Of a stretch of DNA of 20,703 nucleotides, positions 5,342-20,703 are shown piece after piece. Each line of letters begins with the position of its first letter. Within the stretch, counting starts at the first letter, position 1. The position numbers were made by a program, and so were the translations under genes. The stretch spans positions 1 to 20,703 of the forward strand of contig JBHLQH010000038.1 in assembly GCA_048884965.1 (NCBI GenBank), in the 5' to 3' direction. The DNA comes from Candidatus Thorarchaeota archaeon (lineage in GTDB: Archaea; Asgardarchaeota; Thorarchaeia; Thorarchaeales; Thorarchaeaceae). The notes under the pieces were generated by a model. It was not told the DNA's origin. It worked only from the letters and a program-made list of their open reading frames with translations, and made no database searches.

Positions 5342-6442
5342 CTAAAGTGTGAAGAGCTCAAAGATGTTGCCATCGAATTCTTGAGGTGTATCGCCTTTAT
5401 CATAGGGATAGTTGGAGAGGGCCCAGTCGAAGCACTGCTCCATGTTGGTGAAGCCCTGGCCAACCAGTCCTGCTTCTAGGAACCAGTAGGTCCATGCACC
5501 ATTGGAGTAGGTTGACACATCGTACCCATATCCATCATCAGTGCATGTGGTTGTCAAGTAGATGTTTGCACTGTTAGCATTCAACATGACTTCGTTCATT
5601 CCGCCAGAGTAGCAGTGGTCTAGGAAGATGAAGACCTCTGAAACTGCCGGCTCGAACGCTGCAGCAAGCTCCACATCCTTGAATGAGCCATCCTCGCCAT
5701 TCTGACCGACACCGTAATCCCAGAGGCATATGGTTTCACCACCTGAATAGGTAGTACCATGGCCTGAACTGGCATAGACGATGATGTCGTCTTCATCTGC
5801 GAGTCCGACGAAGTAGCTAAGAGCTGCCTTCACATTGTACTCTGTCGCATATCCATCCCACTGAGGATAGGAGTTCTTTCCATCTCCCAGCAAAATGATT
5901 GTGTAATCAAGTGCCGAGAGATAGTTGAACCAATCAGTGGCATCCTCATCACAATAGGTGAGATCATTGATGGCTGAATAGTCTGATATTCCCACAATGA
6001 GCGCATACCTATTCTGTCCTGGTGGCGGTGGTGGGTCTTCAACATTGTCAACTGTAACCGTCACACTTGCAGATGCAGAGAGACCTCCGCTATCAGTAGA
6101 TGATGCAGTGATTGTATGTGTTCCTTCAGCTGCGGCTGTGGTATCCCAATTGTACGAATTGGACGCCGCAACAACTGATCCGTCGATGCTTATCGTTGGG
6201 GTCAATACACCGTCCTGTGCGTCTGTTACTGAAGCCAAGATGGTAACGACACCTGAAACAGTGGCGAAGTTCATCGGCTCAGAAATAGTCACAACCGGAG
6301 CGGTATTCCTCCACCGCCCACCTGGGGCTTTGGTGGCGCCACGGCTCTCGTTCGCTGCCGCTACGTCCACAACTGGCCCAACAACGAATGCTAGACCAAA
6401 TAGAACAAGCAAGCATAGTCCTAAGATTGTAGTTCTTCTCAC
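5342..6442 (-). CDS. Secreted caspase-family (peptidase C14, metacaspase-like) protease with an N-terminal Ig-like domain
   Basis: Signal peptide (RRTTILGLCLLVLFGLAFVVGPVVDVAAA); Ig-like domain (APVVTISEP...VTVTVDN); Pro linker; C14 motifs RYALIVGISDY, DLTYCDEDA, SSGHG (catalytic His) and FLDHCYSGG (catalytic Cys). GTG at 6442 preferred as start; the ORF extends to 6472. Confidence 0.9.
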   Translation of the reverse strand: MRRTTILGLCLLVLFGLAFVVGPVVDVAAANESRGATKAPGGRWRNTAPVVTISEPMNFATVSGVVTILASVTDAQDGVLTPTISIDGSVVAASNSYNWDTTAAAEGTHTITASSTDSGGLSASASVTVTVDNVEDPPPPPGQNRYALIVGISDYSAINDLTYCDEDATDWFNYLSALDYTIILLGDGKNSYPQWDGYATEYNVKAALSYFVGLADEDDIIVYASSGHGTTYSGGETICLWDYGVGQNGEDGSFKDVELAAAFEPAVSEVFIFLDHCYSGGMNEVMLNANSANIYLTTTCTDDGYGYDVSTYSNGAWTYWFLEAGLVGQGFTNMEQCFDWALSNYPYDKGDTPQEFDGNIFELFTL

Positions 6443-6478
6443 AGTAAATCCATCCAGAGAACCTCTGTGCAAGAGCCG

Positions 6479-6622: not shown

Positions 6623-7792
6623 TCAGTGATTCGATTCTTGATCTTTGCGCATCCTCTTCAGGTCCAGCTCATCAACATGTCCTCGAATCTCCTTTCCTAC
6701 TAAATCGATTTGAGATCGTAGGTCCTCGATTTGCCTGCTTCGTCTCGTTAGCTGATCCTTTCTCCTCTGATCGACCTTTGTATACTCCGCATATGCGTCC
6801 GACCATTCTTGTCGAGTTGCTGCAAGCTGCTGCTTCAGATGTTCATACATGATCTTCTTGACATGCACCGTGTTCTTCAAGGTAACAAGCTGTTTTTCAA
6901 GCTCTGAGATCTCCTCTGAGAGCGCGTCCTCAGTTATTTTGAGCTCTTCTCGCAATAGTGCCAACTGGCTCATTGCTTCGCCGACCTGTGTTCCCTTGGT
7001 ATATTCAGTGTCGATGGTCATTGATGTGACTGGGTCCAGATCGGGCTGGAGCGCTCTGGCTTCGTTTGAAGCGGCTACGACTACAGTGTCATTTTCTGCA
7101 ACTGGTTCGGTATGGCTTTGAGGTGCCGCGTATTGAATTGGCTCTTCAGCGGTTGTTTCCGAGAGATCTATCTTGGTTGAGGGGCTTGGCGTTGGTTGTG
7201 GCTCGGGTTTTGCAGGAGCAATATCCTCTATCCCGAGCATCATCTTCGCTAGCTCCCTGAAGGCCTTGTCTATATTATCCCCAGTGAGTGCGGAGGTTTC
7301 AATGAAATACGCAGGGACTCGCATCTCAAGGCTGATATCCTCGGTGAATTTGATTCCTTCATCCGTTGTGACTGTTTCCTCTTTGGAATATCGTGCGCGC
7401 AAGTCCGTCTTGTTGCCAGCAATGATGAGCGGTGGTAGCTTTCCCATGAATCCTTTAGCTTCCACGAGCCATTGTCTTGCATTGTCAAATGACTCCCGAT
7501 TGACAACCGAATAGACTAGGATCAATCCATGGGCACCATCATAGTATCTCTTTCGCAGGTTCTGAAAGAGTGGTTGTCCAGCTATATCCCATATGATGAG
7601 ATCAGTCATATATTGCCTATAAGTGACAGTCTTCCGTGCAAAATCGACACCCAGTGTAGGGATATAGTTAGTCTTGAAGGACTTGTCTAGGAACTTCCTT
7701 CTGGCACTTGTTTTACCAACATATCCGTCACCAATTAGACATATTTTGAATTGCCTACGAATTGTGCCACTCATTGCGATCTCTTGCTCCAT
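6623..7792 (-). CDS. Rab-like small GTPase fused to a Pro/Thr/Glu-rich linker and a C-terminal coiled coil
   Basis: G1 GDGYVGKTS, G2 YIPTLGVDF, G3 WDIAGQ, G4 NKTD, G5 ETSAL; RabF-like LGVDF and YYDGA; about 115 aa heptad-rich C-terminus; no C-terminal Cys prenylation motif. Confidence 0.92.
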   Translation of the reverse strand: MEQEIAMSGTIRRQFKICLIGDGYVGKTSARRKFLDKSFKTNYIPTLGVDFARKTVTYRQYMTDLIIWDIAGQPLFQNLRKRYYDGAHGLILVYSVVNRESFDNARQWLVEAKGFMGKLPPLIIAGNKTDLRARYSKEETVTTDEGIKFTEDISLEMRVPAYFIETSALTGDNIDKAFRELAKMMLGIEDIAPAKPEPQPTPSPSTKIDLSETTAEEPIQYAAPQSHTEPVAENDTVVVAASNEARALQPDLDPVTSMTIDTEYTKGTQVGEAMSQLALLREELKITEDALSEEISELEKQLVTLKNTVHVKKIMYEHLKQQLAATRQEWSDAYAEYTKVDQRRKDQLTRRSRQIEDLRSQIDLVGKEIRGHVDELDLKRMRKDQESNH

Positions 7793-16073: not shown

Positions 16074-16709
16074 TTGACTGAGGACAGGCCACAAATAGGT
16101 CCGGATGCACCGTTCAACCTGCAGGAGAATGCACGCAGATATTTCAAGAATGCTGAGTCATTCCGTGAACAAGGTCAGCATAGAAGTATGGCTGAATGCT
16201 ACGAAAAGGCCTTGGAACTTGGTAAGGCAAGTGACACTCCTGATGGGCTAGCAATTGCAGCGGAAGCATGTCTCTACCTCGGCCATCGAGCAAAGACACA
16301 TGCCGCATGGGGCCTGGCTCTAAAGCACTATGAGGAATCCATTAGCCTGGGTCGAAGATCCGGCACTCCTGAGGGGCTCTATGCAGCAACAAGAGCCGCA
16401 TGGAACCTGGGGAACACCCTCGAAGAAGCTGGGATGGAGGGACTTGAAGATGCCTTTCGTGATGCGATTCAGCTAGGTCGAGCATCACAACTTCAAGCCG
16501 CGTTGGAAGTGGCTGCAAAGGCTGCATTCAATCTTGCTTCAAACCTGTACCCTGATGAGGGATCTGTTCCTTCTGAACAGGTTGAAACAATCGCAGAGGT
16601 ATGGCGTGAGGCTATTGAGCTTGGCAATGAATGTGGAACACGGGATGGCAAAGAGGTTGCGAGCAAGGCCACACGTTATTTGTCAGAACTAACGCAAAAC
16701 GAAGATTGA
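16074..16709 (+). CDS. TPR/SNAP-like alpha-solenoid protein with four ~43-aa repeats
   Basis: Repeats YEKALELGKASDTPDGLAIAAEA / YEESISLGRRSGTPEGLYAATRA / FRDAIQLGRASQLQAALEVAAKA / WREAIELGNECGTRDGKEVASKA; GGAG RBS before the TTG. Confidence 0.8.
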   Translation: MTEDRPQIGPDAPFNLQENARRYFKNAESFREQGQHRSMAECYEKALELGKASDTPDGLAIAAEACLYLGHRAKTHAAWGLALKHYEESISLGRRSGTPEGLYAATRAAWNLGNTLEEAGMEGLEDAFRDAIQLGRASQLQAALEVAAKAAFNLASNLYPDEGSVPSEQVETIAEVWREAIELGNECGTRDGKEVASKATRYLSELTQNED

Positions 16710-16784
16710 TTGAATGAGGTTCAAGTACTCTCAGGCAAAGATAATATGGATTCATTATGGTCCTTTCACAGGGTGAAGGATATA

Positions 16785-17687
16785 TTGGACCTTGAAGGTG
16801 TTGTAATATTTGGCGCAGAGTCTGGTATTCCACTATTTTCGAAAATGAATGAGAGTATCGAGCCCTCACTTTTCAGTGGATTCGTTTCAGCTATTCAAAA
16901 CTTCTCAAAAGAAATGGCATTGGGTGGATTATCCTCGTTTGTAACTGATGAGAAGACAGTGTTTCTAGCCGCGCGTGAGAAGACAGTGACTGCTATCATC
17001 GCTCCTCTTGATTCTGATTTTGATGAAGTCTATTCTCTAGCCTATACACTCGGGGAGAAGTTCGAGGAGAAGTATGAGGTTGTCGAAGGTGGCGAGGTTG
17101 GTATCTACAGATCTTTTGATACAGTGATGACAGAACTCCTCCAACGAAAAGAGATTCCTTTCTTGATACGCGTAGCGAATTTCGCAAGGAAAGAAATCGG
17201 TGGAGATGTATCGGTTCGTCCTCGATTGAAGACACGTAGTGGAACCTACGATACCGTTGACTTACTTGTGGAGTATGGTGAGAAATCCAAGAGAGGCGGG
17301 ATCAGAGACCGTCTCATTCAGAAACACCTTCGCGTCTTCAGTGAGGAGGTCATCTTTGTCAAGACAGTAGATGGGACCGCCGGAAAGGGAGAGGTAATGA
17401 AGTTCATAGAGTCCATGAAGAACTATGGCACTTGGAGGAGAGAAGAGGAAACGATGGATGATGTCTTTCCTTATTTTCCATCACGTGCAGTCATCGTTGC
17501 TCGTGACTATTCTCCTACAGTCTTTGAGGGTCTCGAGGGATTAGATCGGATCGATAGCAAATCGTATATCGCACCTGATCATCTATTTCCCACATTTGGA
17601 ACCAAGATGGCTCCAAAGACAACAAAGTGCTTCATAGAGCTATGGAAATGGCATGATGACAAGTACCCTGAGAGAATCTTCAGCTAA
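16785..17687 (+). CDS. Longin-domain protein fused to a degenerate Mrr-like PD-(D/E)XK nuclease fold
   Basis: N-terminal VVIFGAESGIPLFSK...SLFSGFVSAIQNFSKEM...LGEKFEEKY matches the Asgard longin signature. C-terminal RSG..VDLLV..VIFVK..EVMKF..AVIVARDYS matches restriction-endonuclease-like topology. TTG at 16785 has a GGTGA RBS 8 nt upstream; the ORF extends to 16710. Confidence 0.75.
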   Translation: MDLEGVVIFGAESGIPLFSKMNESIEPSLFSGFVSAIQNFSKEMALGGLSSFVTDEKTVFLAAREKTVTAIIAPLDSDFDEVYSLAYTLGEKFEEKYEVVEGGEVGIYRSFDTVMTELLQRKEIPFLIRVANFARKEIGGDVSVRPRLKTRSGTYDTVDLLVEYGEKSKRGGIRDRLIQKHLRVFSEEVIFVKTVDGTAGKGEVMKFIESMKNYGTWRREEETMDDVFPYFPSRAVIVARDYSPTVFEGLEGLDRIDSKSYIAPDHLFPTFGTKMAPKTTKCFIELWKWHDDKYPERIFS

Positions 17688-17849: not shown

Positions 17850-17857
17850 CATTGGAA

Positions 17858-20703
17858 TTGAATCACAAAAGAGTAGGAATACTATTAGTCCTATCATTCT
17901 TGATGCTTAGTGTTGCTTTCACTACCACTGCAGATGCTTGTGGGCATAACTGGAGATGGAGGTGGAGGCGGGACACCACACCACCGACTGTCACGATAAT
18001 CAATCCAGAGGATGGCGAAACCCTATCTGGCTCAGTCACAATCTCGTTCTCTGCTGAGGATAGAAGTCGCATTCGCTTGTGTCAGATTCTTATCGATGGC
18101 ACAGTACGGTCTTGGAGAAGCACATACGATTGGAACACAACCTTAGAGCTGGATGGCGAACATACCATCACATGCAGAGCAATGGATCAGTTTCGAAACT
18201 GGGGCGAAGCGTCTGTCCTGGTCGATGTTGATAATACTGTTGGTGCTTTCAAGGTAATGAGCTACAACATAGAGGCTTCAGGCTCAAATGCTGACTGGAA
18301 GCAGGTTGTGAAGGAAGAGAATCCTGACATCTTGGTCCTTATAGAAACAGGGACATGGGATGACAATGGGAACTACATTCTCAATCAGATTGTCGATGAG
18401 TTCAACACATTCTTCTTGGACGAGCTACCATACGAAGGCTTCTGCGCTCAAGACATTCAGTACGCAACGAGTGGTGCTACAATTTTGAGTCGGTTTCCAG
18501 TTGTTTCCTTCAACCAGATCTCAATCGTGCCACTTGATGATACGTCCGACTACGATGTTACACATGACTTCGTAGAGGCTATTGTAACCATAGATGAATT
18601 TGATGTCCATATCTTTGGTTCTCACCTCAAGGCAATGTCAGGCGCCGAAAATGAGTACAGACGAGAACGCGAAACAGAGGGCATCATCAACTACATGGAC
18701 AACCTCGGAAATGTCCCCATCATGTATATGGGTGACCTCAACTCATTCTCACCAGATGACACCGGTGATCTTGCACCCTTGGGCGACCTCGGATATGGTC
18801 CAATGACTATGAAGCTGTATCCAGAAGATCCAATCTATGGGCAGTATTCATCCACCGTTCACAATTTCACGGATGTCTTTAGAACCCTGAATCCAACTGA
18901 TCCTGGTTATTCCTATGGACATCAGGACTCACAATACCTATCGCGAATTGACTTTATAGTTGTCAATTCGTTCTTCGCTGAAAAGCTGATTAACTCTACA
19001 GTGGGCGATACCGCAACTGCGGACACTGGCTCCGACCACTATCCGGTTGATGTCTTCGTCACTCTGGATAATCCAATCGAACCTGACAGTATCCCTCCTG
19101 CACAAGTTACAGGTCTTAGTGCTACAACAATTAGCATGTCTCAGATTGACCTAAACTGGGATGCCAACACTGAGCCTGATGTGTCCCATTATCGGGTATA
19201 CCGAGATGGAATGCTGATCGCACAGGTTGTTGGAACTGCCTACAGCAATGTTGGTCTTGACCCATTGACCGAGTATACATACGAGGTTTCAGCAGTCGAT
19301 ACGAGCATCAATGAAGGATTGAAGTCCAATCCTGTGACTGCAATGACGGAGGAAGGCGGAGATGCTGATCTTGTAGTAATCAATGAATTCCTTCCAGACC
19401 CCTATGCCCTTTATACTGAGGAATGGGTTGAATTCTATAATCCTCAGGCTTTGGACGCTGACATGTCTGGATACATACTTGATGACATCACTAGTGGAGG
19501 TACGAACCCATATTCAATCCCTGCAGGAACCGTCATTCCTGGATATGGATATCTTGTGCTTTATCAAGGTGCGACAGGTGTTGGTCTGAACAATGCTGGA
19601 GATACTGTGAATCTTCTGAAACCTGATGGCACTACAGTCATAGATTCCTATACCTACACATCCTCAGCTGATGATGTAAGCTATGGTCGTGAATCAGATG
19701 GCTCACCGTCTTGGACGACATTCGACACCCCAACTCCAGGATCTGCAAACATCGTCGTACTACCAAACGGTGATGGTGTTCTCATCAATGAATTCCTTCC
19801 TGACCCCAACACACTCTACACCGAAGAATGGATAGAGCTCTATAACCCATCAGATACCACAGTCAATGTAACCGGTTACGTGCTTGATGATATCACAACT
19901 GGAGGTACTGCTCCCTACACGATACCATCCGGTACTACTATTCCCGCACATGGCTTCATTGTTCTCTATCAAAGCGTCACTGGGATTGGCCTGAATAATG
20001 CTGGCGATACAGTGAACTACATCAGTTCTGATGGTGTGACAGTCCTTGACTCATATACATACTCGACTTCAGCTGACGACATCAGTTATGGGCGAGAAAC
20101 AGATGGTTCATCCATCTGGACGACCTTTGATACACCATCTCCCGGTGCGAGTAATGGAGCTGGCACAAGCAATGGTGATCTAATAGTCATCAATGAATTC
20201 CTCCCAGACCCCAATACCCTCTACACCGAGGAGTGGATCGAGCTCTACAACCCATTGGATGTGGCTGTTGATATCTCTGGATACATCATTGATGATATCA
20301 CGACAGGTGGAACGGCACCATACACAATACCGATTGGAACGGTTATCCCTGCGTATGGCTTTCTTGTGTTCTACCAGAGCGTTACGAATATCGCATTGAA
20401 CAATGCCGGAGACACTCTGAACTACATCAATCCCGATGCAGTGACAGTCCTAGACTCGTTTACCTATACCTCCTCCGCCGATGATATCAGCTATGGTCGA
20501 GAAACTGATGGGGCATCTACTTGGATCACCTTTGATGCTCCAACCCCGGGAGAATCGAACGCCGGTACATTGGCAAATGGTGATGCAGTCCTCATCAATG
20601 AGTTCTTGCCAGACCCCAACACCCTCTATACTGAGGAGTGGATCGAGCTCTACAATCCCCTGGATGAAACAGTCGATATCTCTGGGTATGTGCTTGATGA
20701 TCT
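17858..20703 (+). CDS. Secreted endonuclease/exonuclease/phosphatase (EEP) family protein: signal peptide, Ig-like, EEP, Fn3, at least 4 lamin-tail domains (3'-truncated by the window end)
   Basis: Open frame of at least 948 codons from TTG 17858, absent from the ORF track because there is no stop. Signal peptide MNHKRVGILLVLSFLMLSVAFTTTADA; EEP motifs MSYNI, LVLIE, GSHLKA, MGDLN, SRIDFI, GSDHYPV; Fn3 (IDLNWDAN..HYRVYRDG..GLDPLTEYTYEVSAVD); LTD repeats VINEFLPDP..EEWIELYNP..GYxxDD..LNNAGD..SYGR..PTPG. Confidence 0.92.
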   Translation, partial: MNHKRVGILLVLSFLMLSVAFTTTADACGHNWRWRWRRDTTPPTVTIINPEDGETLSGSVTISFSAEDRSRIRLCQILIDGTVRSWRSTYDWNTTLELDGEHTITCRAMDQFRNWGEASVLVDVDNTVGAFKVMSYNIEASGSNADWKQVVKEENPDILVLIETGTWDDNGNYILNQIVDEFNTFFLDELPYEGFCAQDIQYATSGATILSRFPVVSFNQISIVPLDDTSDYDVTHDFVEAIVTIDEFDVHIFGSHLKAMSGAENEYRRERETEGIINYMDNLGNVPIMYMGDLNSFSPDDTGDLAPLGDLGYGPMTMKLYPEDPIYGQYSSTVHNFTDVFRTLNPTDPGYSYGHQDSQYLSRIDFIVVNSFFAEKLINSTVGDTATADTGSDHYPVDVFVTLDNPIEPDSIPPAQVTGLSATTISMSQIDLNWDANTEPDVSHYRVYRDGMLIAQVVGTAYSNVGLDPLTEYTYEVSAVDTSINEGLKSNPVTAMTEEGGDADLVVINEFLPDPYALYTEEWVEFYNPQALDADMSGYILDDITSGGTNPYSIPAGTVIPGYGYLVLYQGATGVGLNNAGDTVNLLKPDGTTVIDSYTYTSSADDVSYGRESDGSPSWTTFDTPTPGSANIVVLPNGDGVLINEFLPDPNTLYTEEWIELYNPSDTTVNVTGYVLDDITTGGTAPYTIPSGTTIPAHGFIVLYQSVTGIGLNNAGDTVNYISSDGVTVLDSYTYSTSADDISYGRETDGSSIWTTFDTPSPGASNGAGTSNGDLIVINEFLPDPNTLYTEEWIELYNPLDVAVDISGYIIDDITTGGTAPYTIPIGTVIPAYGFLVFYQSVTNIALNNAGDTLNYINPDAVTVLDSFTYTSSADDISYGRETDGASTWITFDAPTPGESNAGTLANGDAVLINEFLPDPNTLYTEEWIELYNPLDETVDISGYVLDD
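19373..20703 (+). repeat. Tandem 405-bp (135-aa) coding repeats, lamin-tail domains: three complete and one partial
   Basis: The AAT-GAR-TTC (NEF) anchor recurs at 19382, 19787, 20192 and 20597, an exact 405-bp period, with many synonymous differences between copies. Confidence 0.9.

What the first reader, a model, noticed from the sequence alone, without database searches (positions are those of the whole stretch)
16785..17687. Longin domain fused to an apparently inactive Mrr-like restriction-endonuclease fold
Seen: the N-terminal ~120 aa carry the pattern typical of Asgard longin domains (SGIPLF, LFSGFVSAIQNFSKE). The C-terminal ~180 aa follow PD-(D/E)XK/Mrr_cat order: helix FLIRVANF, RSG, VDLLV, a strand ending in K, helix EVMKF, AVIVARDYS. 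The expected E-x-K reads F-V-K and the first-helix Glu is absent. Established: longin domains scaffold Rab GEFs (TRAPP, Mon1-Ccz1, DENN) and some SNAREs, while Mrr-like folds are defence nucleases. Inference: a nuclease fold repurposed as a nucleic-acid- or protein-binding module and coupled to a GTPase-regulatory longin domain. That would link proto-eukaryotic GTPase signalling to a defence-derived fold. I do not know a characterised protein with this architecture.
Basis: partly seen in the sequence, partly recalled or inferred. Interest (0 to 1): 0.75.

Follow-up and report, generated by a model that had tools for sequence, protein, structure and literature searches.

The report
Asgard longin fused to pseudo-nuclease fold
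This Thorarchaeota gene encodes an unannotated, Asgard-only protein that joins a eukaryote-style longin domain to a restriction-enzyme-like fold that has lost a key catalytic residue, so it is probably an adaptor rather than a DNA cutter, but its function is untested.

Summary

Among 136 full-length members:
- The strand-2 Asp is kept in 134.
- The expected acid of (D/E)xK is never acidic (Phe in 131).
- The Lys is lost in 17.

A canonical nuclease is therefore unlikely.

"Mrr-like" and "defence-derived" are not supported. There is no Pfam, PADLOC or profile match, and no DNA methylase or GTPase among the neighbours examined. The GTPase link is inferred only. A closely related longin (50% identity) is fused to a Rag-like GTPase, and a more distant one (32%) to a Ras-like GTPase.

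New here:
- The window copy is a rarer "type B" paralogue. It sits in tandem with type A in sister genomes but has been relocated here.
- Three genomes of one other Asgard family carry the two domains in swapped order, beside a type II methylase.

This scan had already noted the same architecture on other DNA (e1-5597283 and others). I found no paper describing it. Interest is moderate.

The parts
16785..17687 (+). Gene for the 300-aa longin + pseudo-nuclease protein (type B paralogue). TTG start; stop codon included.
   Evidence: ORF. The called protein P0002 and 83 homologues. Homologue N-termini align at this start.
16710..16784 (+). In-frame upstream extension with alternative starts (TTG 16710, ATG 16746). 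Probably 5' leader rather than coding.
   Evidence: None of the 45 aligned homologues carries a related extension; four have unrelated N-terminal extensions.
16785..17153 (+). Longin domain, residues 1-123 (strands 5-10, 16-21; helix 27-44; strands 51-74; helices 79-96 and 105-120).
16821..16835 (+). S-G-I-P-L motif at the end of the strand1-strand2 loop. This is the most conserved patch of the longin half.
   Evidence: S 117, G 133, P 124, L 133 of 136 members. Position read.
16974..16976 (+). Arg64 in the strand3-strand4 hairpin of the longin domain.
   Evidence: R in 103 of 136 members. Hairpin position. The likeness to the Arg finger of GAP-type longins is unverified.
17154..17684 (+). Restriction-endonuclease-like (PD-(D/E)XK-fold) domain, residues 124-300.
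17259..17261 (+). Asp159, at the position of the canonical strand-2 catalytic Asp.
   Evidence: D in 134 of 136 members. Codon checked.
17355..17363 (+). F191-V192-K193 on strand 3, where (D/E)-x-K is expected.
   Evidence: Position 191: F 131, I 3, L 1, Y 1, with no acid in 136. Position 193: K 117, R 2, other 17. Codons checked.
16074..16709 (+). Upstream gene on the same strand, 75 nt away: a 211-aa helical-repeat (weakly TPR-like) protein. Not a conserved partner.
   Evidence: Pfam TPR_12 at E 0.0034, below cut-off. No BLASTP hit (E <= 1e-5) to any ORF of the 35 related loci. BLASTP E 0.081 to the TPR protein next to the type A copy.

Best explanation
The gene encodes a soluble two-domain adaptor of an Asgard-only family.

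The N-terminal longin domain most likely acts as longins do elsewhere, as a docking surface for a Ras-superfamily GTPase and/or for another longin or roadblock protein.

The C-terminal domain is a restriction-endonuclease-like fold that has lost the canonical metal-binding acid in every member and the catalytic Lys in about one in eight. It most likely no longer cuts nucleic acid. Instead it probably serves as a fixed binding or assembly module. Its conserved polar residues are D159, K193, D/E196, R/K201, R/K240, C282 and E/D285.

The two domains work as one unit. The C-domain was not found without the longin, and one other Asgard family carries both domains in swapped order.

The window's copy is the rarer type B paralogue. 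It lies in tandem with type A in sister genomes, as paired longin subunits often do.

Shown here: the gene, its conservation, the predicted folds, the residue pattern and the phyletic spread. Inferred: loss of catalysis, any GTPase docking and any pairing.
For: - Residues: 0 of 136 members have an acid at position 191, and 17 of 136 lack a basic residue at 193.
- Fixed architecture: a C-domain profile found 102 proteins of 95-354 aa. All are about 250-320 aa or short fragments, and none has a precomputed Pfam domain. No forms of 355-2000 aa were found.
- Swapped order: in 3 of 3 genomes of family f12, profile positions 123-296 match first (E about 1e-21) and positions 24-100 match second (i-E 5e-4 to 0.08).
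- GTPase hint: a longin 50% identical to this one sits in P0095 with a Gtr1/RagA GTPase. A 32%-identical one sits in P0111 with a Ras GTPase.
- 29 of 45 members weakly resemble the first longin of the Fuzzy/Mon1/HPS1 Rab-GEF subunits.
- Paralogues: the genome has two full copies at 38% identity. Copies are tandem in L001, L002 and L005 and adjacent in G128, G167 and G169.
- No defence signal: PADLOC gives no hit.
- Precedent (recalled): Rpb5 jaw, ERCC1 and EME1 are inactive nuclease folds used for assembly. Rpb5 chains appear in the hit list.
Against: - No binding partner is shown.
- No GTPase gene lies within 6 kb in 0 of 35 related loci. The window's own genome has only weak Gtr1/RagA-type hits (best E 1.6e-10).
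- The C-domain keeps many conserved charged residues: D159 in 134/136, acid at 196 in 126/136, acid at 285 in 132/136, R/K201 in 132/136. This looks more like a working site than a decayed one. PD-(D/E)XK enzymes are known (recalled: Cfr10I, NgoMIV) to move the acid elsewhere.
- The mapping of D159/F191/K193 onto catalytic positions is by element order only.
- In family f12 the gene always follows a type II DNA methylase, an arrangement typical of restriction-modification.
Confidence: 0.45

Rival explanations
1. It is an active nuclease with a relocated catalytic acid (for example D/E196, D/E209 or E/D285 in place of position 191). The longin domain would gate or target it, possibly through a GTPase. 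It would then be a new GTPase-linked DNA or RNA processing or defence enzyme.
For: - D159 is kept in 134/136 and K193 in 117/136. Acids are kept at 196 (126/136), 209 (129/136) and 285 (132/136).
- The best structural neighbours are real nucleases: NucS/EndoMS, PaqCI, Can2, Card1.
- The swapped-order relatives lie directly downstream of a type II N6/N4 DNA methylase in 3 of 3 genomes.
- A 2026 preprint states that profilin-longin-like domains occur with GTPases in candidate anti-selfish-element systems (10.64898/2026.10.19.760177, passages read).
Against: - Position 191 is hydrophobic in all 136 members.
- The Lys is N/S/Q/I in 17 members, which true nucleases rarely tolerate.
- No PADLOC hit.
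- No methylase among the recurrent Thorarchaeota neighbour families scanned.
- The C-domain's net charge is about neutral (mean +0.6).
- In G023 the methylase has another candidate partner upstream (weak REase_II/PDC-S02 hits).
Confidence: 0.2
2. It is a housekeeping adaptor unrelated to small GTPases. The longin domain would be used, as in SNAREs or adaptor sigma subunits, for protein or membrane contacts. It might be tied to membrane-lipid or transport functions encoded nearby.
For: - The type A copy sits in a stable Thorarchaeota neighbourhood.
- That neighbourhood holds an unknown 237-aa protein directly upstream on the same strand (19 of 35 loci, plus the window genome's own type A copy), a PEMT/ICMT-type membrane methyltransferase, an EamA transporter and ABC-2 transporter genes.
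- The best fold matches of the longin half are SNARE and adaptor longins.
- Earlier scan notes (e1-2676559, e1-5517101, unchecked here) report Loki-type nuclease-fold + longin proteins next to a lipid head-group synthase.
- No GTPase neighbour in 0 of 35 loci.
Against: - The synteny is confined to one family of close relatives. It is absent from the Hermod (L003) and Frey (L004) loci and from the window itself, so it may only reflect shared descent.
- Related longins are fused to GTPases.
Confidence: 0.2
3. [quoted passage not shown] That would make it an already catalogued GATOR1-type subunit.
Against: - Pfam NPR2 does not hit the protein, none of the 45 members, and nothing in this genome at E <= 1.
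- The C-domain's 50 best structural rows hold no GATOR1 chain.
- Earlier scan notes (e1-5584573, e1-5584231, not checked here) place separate longin + winged-helix NPRL2-like genes elsewhere in this genome.
Confidence: 0.05

Closest known systems
Eukaryotic and Asgard longin domains (VAMP7, Sec22b, AP sigma/mu N-domains, Fuzzy/Mon1/HPS1 first longin, TRAPPC1/2/4; solved Lokiarchaeota longin 8yqg)
   Different: No Pfam longin model reaches its cut-off. No SNARE motif, DENN, mu-homology or further longin domains follow; a nuclease-like fold follows instead. GEF, GAP or SNARE-type roles are all untested.
PD-(D/E)XK nucleases AF1548 (1y88), NucS/EndoMS (2vld, 5gke), XisH (2okf, 2inb)
   Different: - 8-14% identity, and no significant profile match (hhalign P 0.058 to NucS_C; probability 0.5% to Mrr_cat).
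- Phe replaces the (D/E) in all members.
- There is an insertion between strands 2 and 3, plus extra C-terminal strands.
- I recall AF1548 as Mrr_cat-like but could not confirm this (one search found no PDB hit).
Rpb5 N-terminal 'jaw' domain, ERCC1/EME1-type inactive nuclease folds
   Different: Lower similarity than to true nucleases. No relation to RNA polymerase or XPF-type partners is indicated. The ERCC1/EME1 comparison is recalled, not tested.
Longin + alpha/beta C-domain regulators of GTPases (FLCN, SMCR8, C9orf72, NPRL2/3; DENN proteins)
   Same: - An N-terminal longin is followed by a second globular domain.
- Paralogue pairs occur.
- A conserved G-x-P lies at the start of strand 2 and an Arg (103/136) lies in the strand 3-4 hairpin. 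These recall the GP motif and Arg finger described in PMC12290439 (passages read).
   Different: - The motif is G-x-P, not G-P.
- The Arg is not universal.
- The C-domain's structural matches are nucleases, not DENN or GATOR1 chains.
- DENND1A and GATOR1 match only the longin half.
Asgard longin- or roadblock-fused Rag/Arf-like GTPases (Tran et al. 2024, PMC10933270; Liu et al. preprint)
   Same: The same longin subfamily. P0095 (548 aa) has a 50%-identical longin followed by a Gtr1/RagA GTPase. P0111 (478 aa) has a 32%-identical longin followed by a Ras GTPase.
   Different: This family has no GTPase domain. Neither paper's passages that I read mention a nuclease-like partner domain.

Membership tests
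Longin domain superfamily | bb-a-bbb-aa topology without an N-terminal helix | tested here: met
   DSSP of the AF2 model: E5-10, E16-21, H27-44, E51-53/57-63, E67-74, H79-96, H105-120.
Longin domain superfamily | Structural similarity to solved longin domains | tested here: met
Longin domain superfamily | Hit to a curated longin sequence model above its cut-off | tested here: not met
   No Pfam family at E <= 10 for the window protein. PF19036 is matched only below cut-off: best E 0.0053, 29 of 45 members.
PD-(D/E)XK (restriction-endonuclease-like) superfamily | a-bbb-a-b core fold | tested here: met
PD-(D/E)XK (restriction-endonuclease-like) superfamily | Catalytic Asp at the start of strand 2 | tested here: met
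   D159 in 134 of 136 members. Placement is by element order only.
PD-(D/E)XK (restriction-endonuclease-like) superfamily | (D/E)-x-K on strand 3 | tested here: not met
   Position 191: F 131, I 3, L 1, Y 1 of 136, with no acid. Position 193: K/R in 119, other in 17.
Mrr_cat (PF04471) | Match to the family's sequence model or profile | tested here: not met
   No hit at E <= 10. 0 of 45 members at E <= 5. The genome scan hits another gene (contig C71) and not this one. hhalign against 4 Asgard Mrr_cat domains gives probability 0.5%.
NucS_C (PF01939) | Match to the family's sequence model or profile | tested here: not met
   No match in the window's own genome. hhalign against 12 Asgard NucS_C domains gives P 0.058 and probability 0.9%.
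Type II restriction-modification endonuclease | Adjacent cognate DNA methyltransferase | tested here: not met
   None of the window's ORFs hits a DNA methylase model (Pfam). None of the 12 recurrent neighbour families does either. Only the swapped-order relatives of family f12 follow an N6_N4 methylase, in 3 of 3 genomes.
Known anti-phage defence proteins (PADLOC-DB) | Match to a defence-system model | tested here: not met
   0 families at E <= 0.01 for the window protein, its type A paralogue and the swapped-order relative.
NPRL2-like Thorarchaeota family / GATOR1 NPRL2-NPRL3 | NPR2-type sequence match and NPRL2-type C-terminal domain | tested here: inconclusive
   PF06218 gives no hit to the protein, the 45 members or the genome. 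That model also found nothing else in this genome. No GATOR1 chain is among the C-domain's 50 best rows. The asCOG table was not readable.
GAP-type longins (FLCN, SMCR8, C9orf72, NPRL2) | GP motif before strand 2 next to an arginine finger | tested here: inconclusive
   G14 in 133/136 and P16 in 124/136, but separated by one residue (G-x-P). R64 in 103/136 lies in the strand 3-4 hairpin. Spatial equivalence could not be checked. The motif definition comes from PMC12290439.

The most novel reading that the evidence does not exclude
The family is a small-GTPase-gated nuclease. The longin domain would dock a Ras-superfamily GTPase and switch a variant PD-(D/E)XK active site, with its acid relocated to D/E196, D/E209 or E/D285. 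This would give Asgard archaea a GTPase-controlled DNA or RNA cutting module. The swapped-order form beside a type II methylase would be its restriction-modification-like relative.
Probability: 0.1. Interest if true: 0.8.

Novelty: new variant of a known kind. Interest (0 to 1): 0.45.

Why it matters
Longin domains are core parts of eukaryotic membrane-traffic and nutrient-signalling switches, and Asgard archaea hold many of them in unfamiliar combinations. This is a conserved, unannotated combination. It occurs in 36 of 201 sampled Asgard genomes, including 25 of 43 in the window genome's own family. The second half is a nuclease fold that has apparently been re-used as a binding module, and the two halves occur in both orders.

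If the partner of either half were found, it would give a defined and testable case of how Asgard longins are wired. The possibilities include GTPases, nucleic acid, or membrane and lipid functions. If the protein proves to be an adaptor with no link to GTPases or nucleic acid, it is one more lineage-specific Asgard multidomain protein.

Tried and rejected
- **Homodimer prediction.** I ran complex prediction with two copies and the 45-row alignment. The verdict was 'no answer', score 0.00 against a mark of 0.42, and the controls were not run. This is neither for nor against pairing.
- **Sequence searches of solved structures.** I searched with the protein and with profiles A1 and A3. Only chance-level hits appeared (best E 0.048, ribosomal uL22).
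- **NCBIfam.** One chance-level hit only (UreE, E 0.042 against a cut-off of 290 bits).
- **hhalign of the C-domain.** Against NucS_C and Mrr_cat domains taken from Asgard genomes, nothing was significant. The local NucS alignment put K193 opposite the Glu of ExK, so the register is unsettled.
- **Family of AF1548.** I tried to show which Pfam family it belongs to with an Mrr_cat profile. There was no PDB hit, so that link stays recalled.
- **C-domain in longer proteins** (355-2000 aa). None was found, which the tool itself calls weak evidence. It also missed the 354-394-aa swapped-order proteins.
- **ESM Atlas on the C-domain**. Best scores were 0.81, which are leads only. One cluster carries Mrr_cat in 11% of its members.
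- **RNA evidence**. No RNA holder is listed, and I did not lay any reads.
- **TPR link.** I compared the window's upstream repeat protein with the TPR protein next to the type A copy. BLASTP gave E 0.081, so this was rejected as a conserved pairing.
- **Window GTPase (6623-7792) as partner.** No related locus has a similar GTPase within 6 kb, and I ran no further search on it.
- **Gtr1/RagA in the window's own genome**. There were only 4 weak hits (best E 1.6e-10, 180-242-aa ORFs), so no obvious cognate Rag-like partner could be picked.
- **Literature.**
  - 'longin + Asgard + endonuclease' found 0 papers.
  - 'longin + nuclease + Thorarchaeota' found 0 papers.
  - 'longin + restriction endonuclease' found 64 papers; none of the 10 listed was relevant by title or abstract except one preprint, which I read in passages.
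  - A search term with brackets was rejected for syntax.

Full report
**The gene**

The frame 16710-17687 (+) is open. The gene as called elsewhere starts at TTG 16785 and gives 300 aa (P0002). 45 aligned homologues begin at the same residue.

The protein has no Pfam hit at E <= 10 and no hit to any solved chain by sequence. Its one NCBIfam hit is at chance level.

It is nevertheless strongly conserved:
- 83 proteins score E <= 1e-3 among 1557 candidates. The best non-self hit is 1e-155 and nearly all cover >= 94% of the query. All are about 290-320 aa apart from three shorter entries (188-257 aa).
- Those that carry a name are called 'hypothetical protein'. The lineage labels are Thor-, Loki/Prometh-, Odin-, Hod- and Freyarchaeota.
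- An exhaustive search of 1.84 billion representatives found 66 proteins, 15 of them at E <= 1e-30.

**N-terminal half: longin**

I built an AF2 model from a 45-row alignment. These were 45 of the 83 hits, chosen for diversity and contig length. The model has mean pLDDT 84.7 and pTM 0.78. Residues 1-120 read bb-a-bbb-aa.

Against 48,161 representative chains, the first 35 rows are longin or roadblock-type chains:

Foldseek gives 44 matches at E <= 1e-3, led by adaptor sigma subunits and Sec22b. By sequence, 29 of 45 members weakly resemble PF19036, the first longin of Fuzzy/Mon1/HPS1. The best E is 0.0053, under the cut-off.

The most conserved patch is S-G-x-P-L at the entry to strand 2, followed by the GGLSSFxT(D/E)EK stretch.

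**C-terminal half: restriction-endonuclease-like fold**

Modelled alone (residues 121-300, 59-row alignment), it reaches pLDDT 91.8 and pTM 0.88.

Foldseek finds nothing at E <= 1e-3. Its best hits are EndoMS at 4.7e-3 and NucS at 5.0e-3.

- then PaqCI, Can2, Card1, AspBHI, MspJI, FokI, McrC, Bax1, SfsA and Rpb5 jaw domains

Of the 50 rows, five are clearly something else: three acetyl-CoA carboxylase chains, a rhomboid N-domain and a mitoribosome chain. I recognise the rest as nuclease-fold proteins. That recognition is recalled, not tested.

**Is it Mrr-like, and is it active?**

As a family, Mrr_cat fails every sequence test I could run:
- No Pfam hit for the protein.
- 0 of 45 members hit it.
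- A genome scan with PF04471 hits a different gene.
- Profile-profile probability is 0.5% against four Asgard Mrr_cat domains.

NucS_C fares no better, with P 0.058.

On catalysis, I aligned 136 full-length members:
- The strand-2 Asp (D159) is kept in 134.
- The position of the (D/E) is F 131, I 3, L 1, Y 1, and never an acid.
- The Lys position is K 117, R 2, N 8, S 6, Q 2, I 1.

A universally hydrophobic residue at the acid position, and loss of the Lys in 17 members, argue against a canonical nuclease.

Against that, other charged positions are well kept: acid at 196 in 126/136, R/K201 in 132/136, acid at 209 in 129/136, R/K240 in 128/136, C282 in 133/136 and acid at 285 in 132/136. Relocated acids are known in this superfamily (recalled). 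I had no coordinates, so I could not see which of these residues are neighbours in space.

Net charge is about -7 for the longin half and about +0.6 for the C-domain.

**The two halves belong together**

A C-domain profile (24 rows) found 102 proteins of 95-354 aa. All have the same roughly 300-aa architecture or are short fragments. No longer proteins were found (weak evidence).

A scan of 201 Asgard genomes found the C-domain in 36. That includes 25 of 43 genomes of the window genome's own family, with patchy presence elsewhere and none in 0 of 40 (f8) and 0 of 21 (f4).

In family f12 (3 of 3 genomes) the match lies in ORFs of about 354-394 aa, and the order is swapped. Profile positions 123-296 match residues about 3-220 (E about 1e-21). 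Positions 24-100 of the longin half then match weakly at residues about 254-370 (i-E 5e-4, 0.0038, 0.082).

That C-terminal part belongs to a domain family present in 189 of 201 Asgard genomes.

All three swapped-order genes follow a type II N6/N4 DNA methylase. In G023 that methylase has another weak candidate partner upstream.

**Paralogues and context**

The window's genome has two full copies: this one, and one on contig C2 at 38% identity. It also has 12 longin-only matches, several of them in ORFs of 1,500-2,260 aa.

I built a tree of 39 rows, chosen from the roughly 190 proteins held:
- The usual Thorarchaeota form ('type A', 18 rows, support 100/100) includes the C2 copy.
- The window's copy ('type B') groups with the second copies of L001 and L002 (98/98). 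It then groups with a Hermodarchaeota protein (89/86), nearer to the Odin, Hod, Frey and Heimdall forms.

In L001 and L002 the A and B copies are in tandem, and L005 also carries two copies side by side. Adjacent pairs also occur in G128, G167 and G169. In the window's genome, B has moved.

Type A has a stable neighbourhood:
- FAD_binding_2 oxidoreductase in 27 loci
- an unknown 780-aa protein in 30 loci
- an unknown 237-aa protein directly upstream on the same strand in 19 of 35 loci, plus the window genome's own type A copy
- a PEMT/ICMT-type methyltransferase in 12 loci
- EamA and ABC-2 transporters

None of these neighbours is in the window, nor in the Hermod (L003) or Frey (L004) loci. 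The synteny may therefore only reflect kinship.

Around the window gene lie a weakly TPR-like protein (16074-16709) and a secreted EEP/fn3/lamin-tail protein (17852 onward). No related locus holds a Ras-like GTPase within 6 kb, 0 of 35. The GTPase at 6623-7792 is therefore not a conserved neighbour.

**The GTPase link**

The only positive evidence is by domain fusion:
- P0095 (548 aa) has a longin 50% identical to this one, followed by a roughly 100-residue domain and a Gtr1/RagA GTPase.
- P0111 (478 aa) has a 32%-identical longin with a Ras GTPase.
- Tran et al. 2024 (PMC10933270) and Liu et al. (preprint) describe longin-GTPase fusions in Asgard archaea. I read passages of both.
- PMC12290439 describes a GP motif and an Arg finger in GAP-type longins (passages read). 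This family has G-x-P at the same loop, and an Arg in 103 of 136 members in the strand 3-4 hairpin. I could not verify that these positions are equivalent.

**What is known**

- Liu et al. mention an 'NPRL2-like' longin family in most Thor MAGs. I could not read their supplementary tables.
- Pfam NPR2 finds nothing in this protein or this genome.
- Earlier scan notes place longin + winged-helix NPRL2-like genes elsewhere in this genome. I did not check them.
- Four literature searches found no description of a longin + nuclease-fold protein.
- This scan itself noted the same architecture before on other DNA: e1-5597283 in the same domain order, and e1-2676559, e1-5636737 and e1-5517101 with the nuclease fold first.

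**Verdict**

'Mrr-like', 'defence-derived' and 'GTPase-regulatory' are not shown.

My best reading is a non-catalytic nuclease fold serving as a binding module on a longin adaptor (confidence 0.45). The rivals are an active nuclease variant (0.2) and a non-GTPase adaptor (0.2).

The architecture is undescribed but is built from known parts, and its function is unknown. Interest is moderate.

Noticed in passing
L069:2095-3156, L071:1419-2600, L078:9310-10371 (genomes G023, G034, G012): The same two domains occur in swapped order (nuclease-like fold first, longin-like part last, 354-394 aa) in 3 of 3 genomes of one other Asgard family. Each gene lies directly downstream of a type II N6/N4 DNA methylase.
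   Followed up: partly
Proteins P0094, P0099, P0100, P0110 (230-298 aa) and P0095 (548 aa): A sister architecture. A longin of the same subfamily (40-50% identical) is followed by a different domain of about 100 aa. I guess that domain is gelsolin-like, but this is untested. In P0095 a Gtr1/RagA GTPase also follows.
   Followed up: partly
window 6623-7792 (-): 389-aa protein with a Ras-family GTPase domain (Pfam Ras E 5.6e-41) and a long coiled-coil tail. It is not a conserved neighbour of the finding.
   Followed up: partly
window 5342-6472 (-): 376-aa protein with a bacterial Ig domain (Big_7) followed by a caspase-type Peptidase_C14 domain.
   Followed up: no
window 17852-20701 (+), runs off the window: A large secreted-looking protein of at least 950 aa. 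It has Big_7, an endonuclease/exonuclease/phosphatase domain, fn3 and at least four lamin-tail domains (LTD E 1.1e-56).
   Followed up: no
own genome: C20:13722-14096, C14:29369-29737, C1:287963-288289, C1:299241-299558, C1:292626-292946: The same longin profile matches inside very large open frames (1,504-2,261 aa). This longin type is therefore also a module of giant proteins in this genome.
   Followed up: no
L044:6650-7369 (own genome, contig C2), and family F4 in 20 of the 35 related loci (directly upstream in 19): An unknown protein of about 237 aa sits upstream of the type A copy on the same strand. It has a weak zinc-finger-like N-terminus (IBR E 0.042). A PEMT/ICMT-type membrane methyltransferase lies two or three genes away in 12 loci.
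   Followed up: partly
L057, L061, L062, L064-L068 (Asgard genomes G020, G021, G028, G002, G014, G026, G011, G022): Pfam Mrr_cat hits in these genomes fall on short proteins. Their sequence continues into a motif that I recall from the C-terminus of RNA polymerase subunit Rpb5/RpoH. Asgard Rpb5-like proteins therefore seem to carry a degenerate nuclease-like N-domain that the Mrr_cat model picks up.
   Followed up: no
window 16785 versus same-genus genomes G146 and G164: The two same-genus genomes sampled (92-93% complete) each show only one copy of the family. The score suggests type A, so the type B copy may be specific to this species.
   Followed up: no
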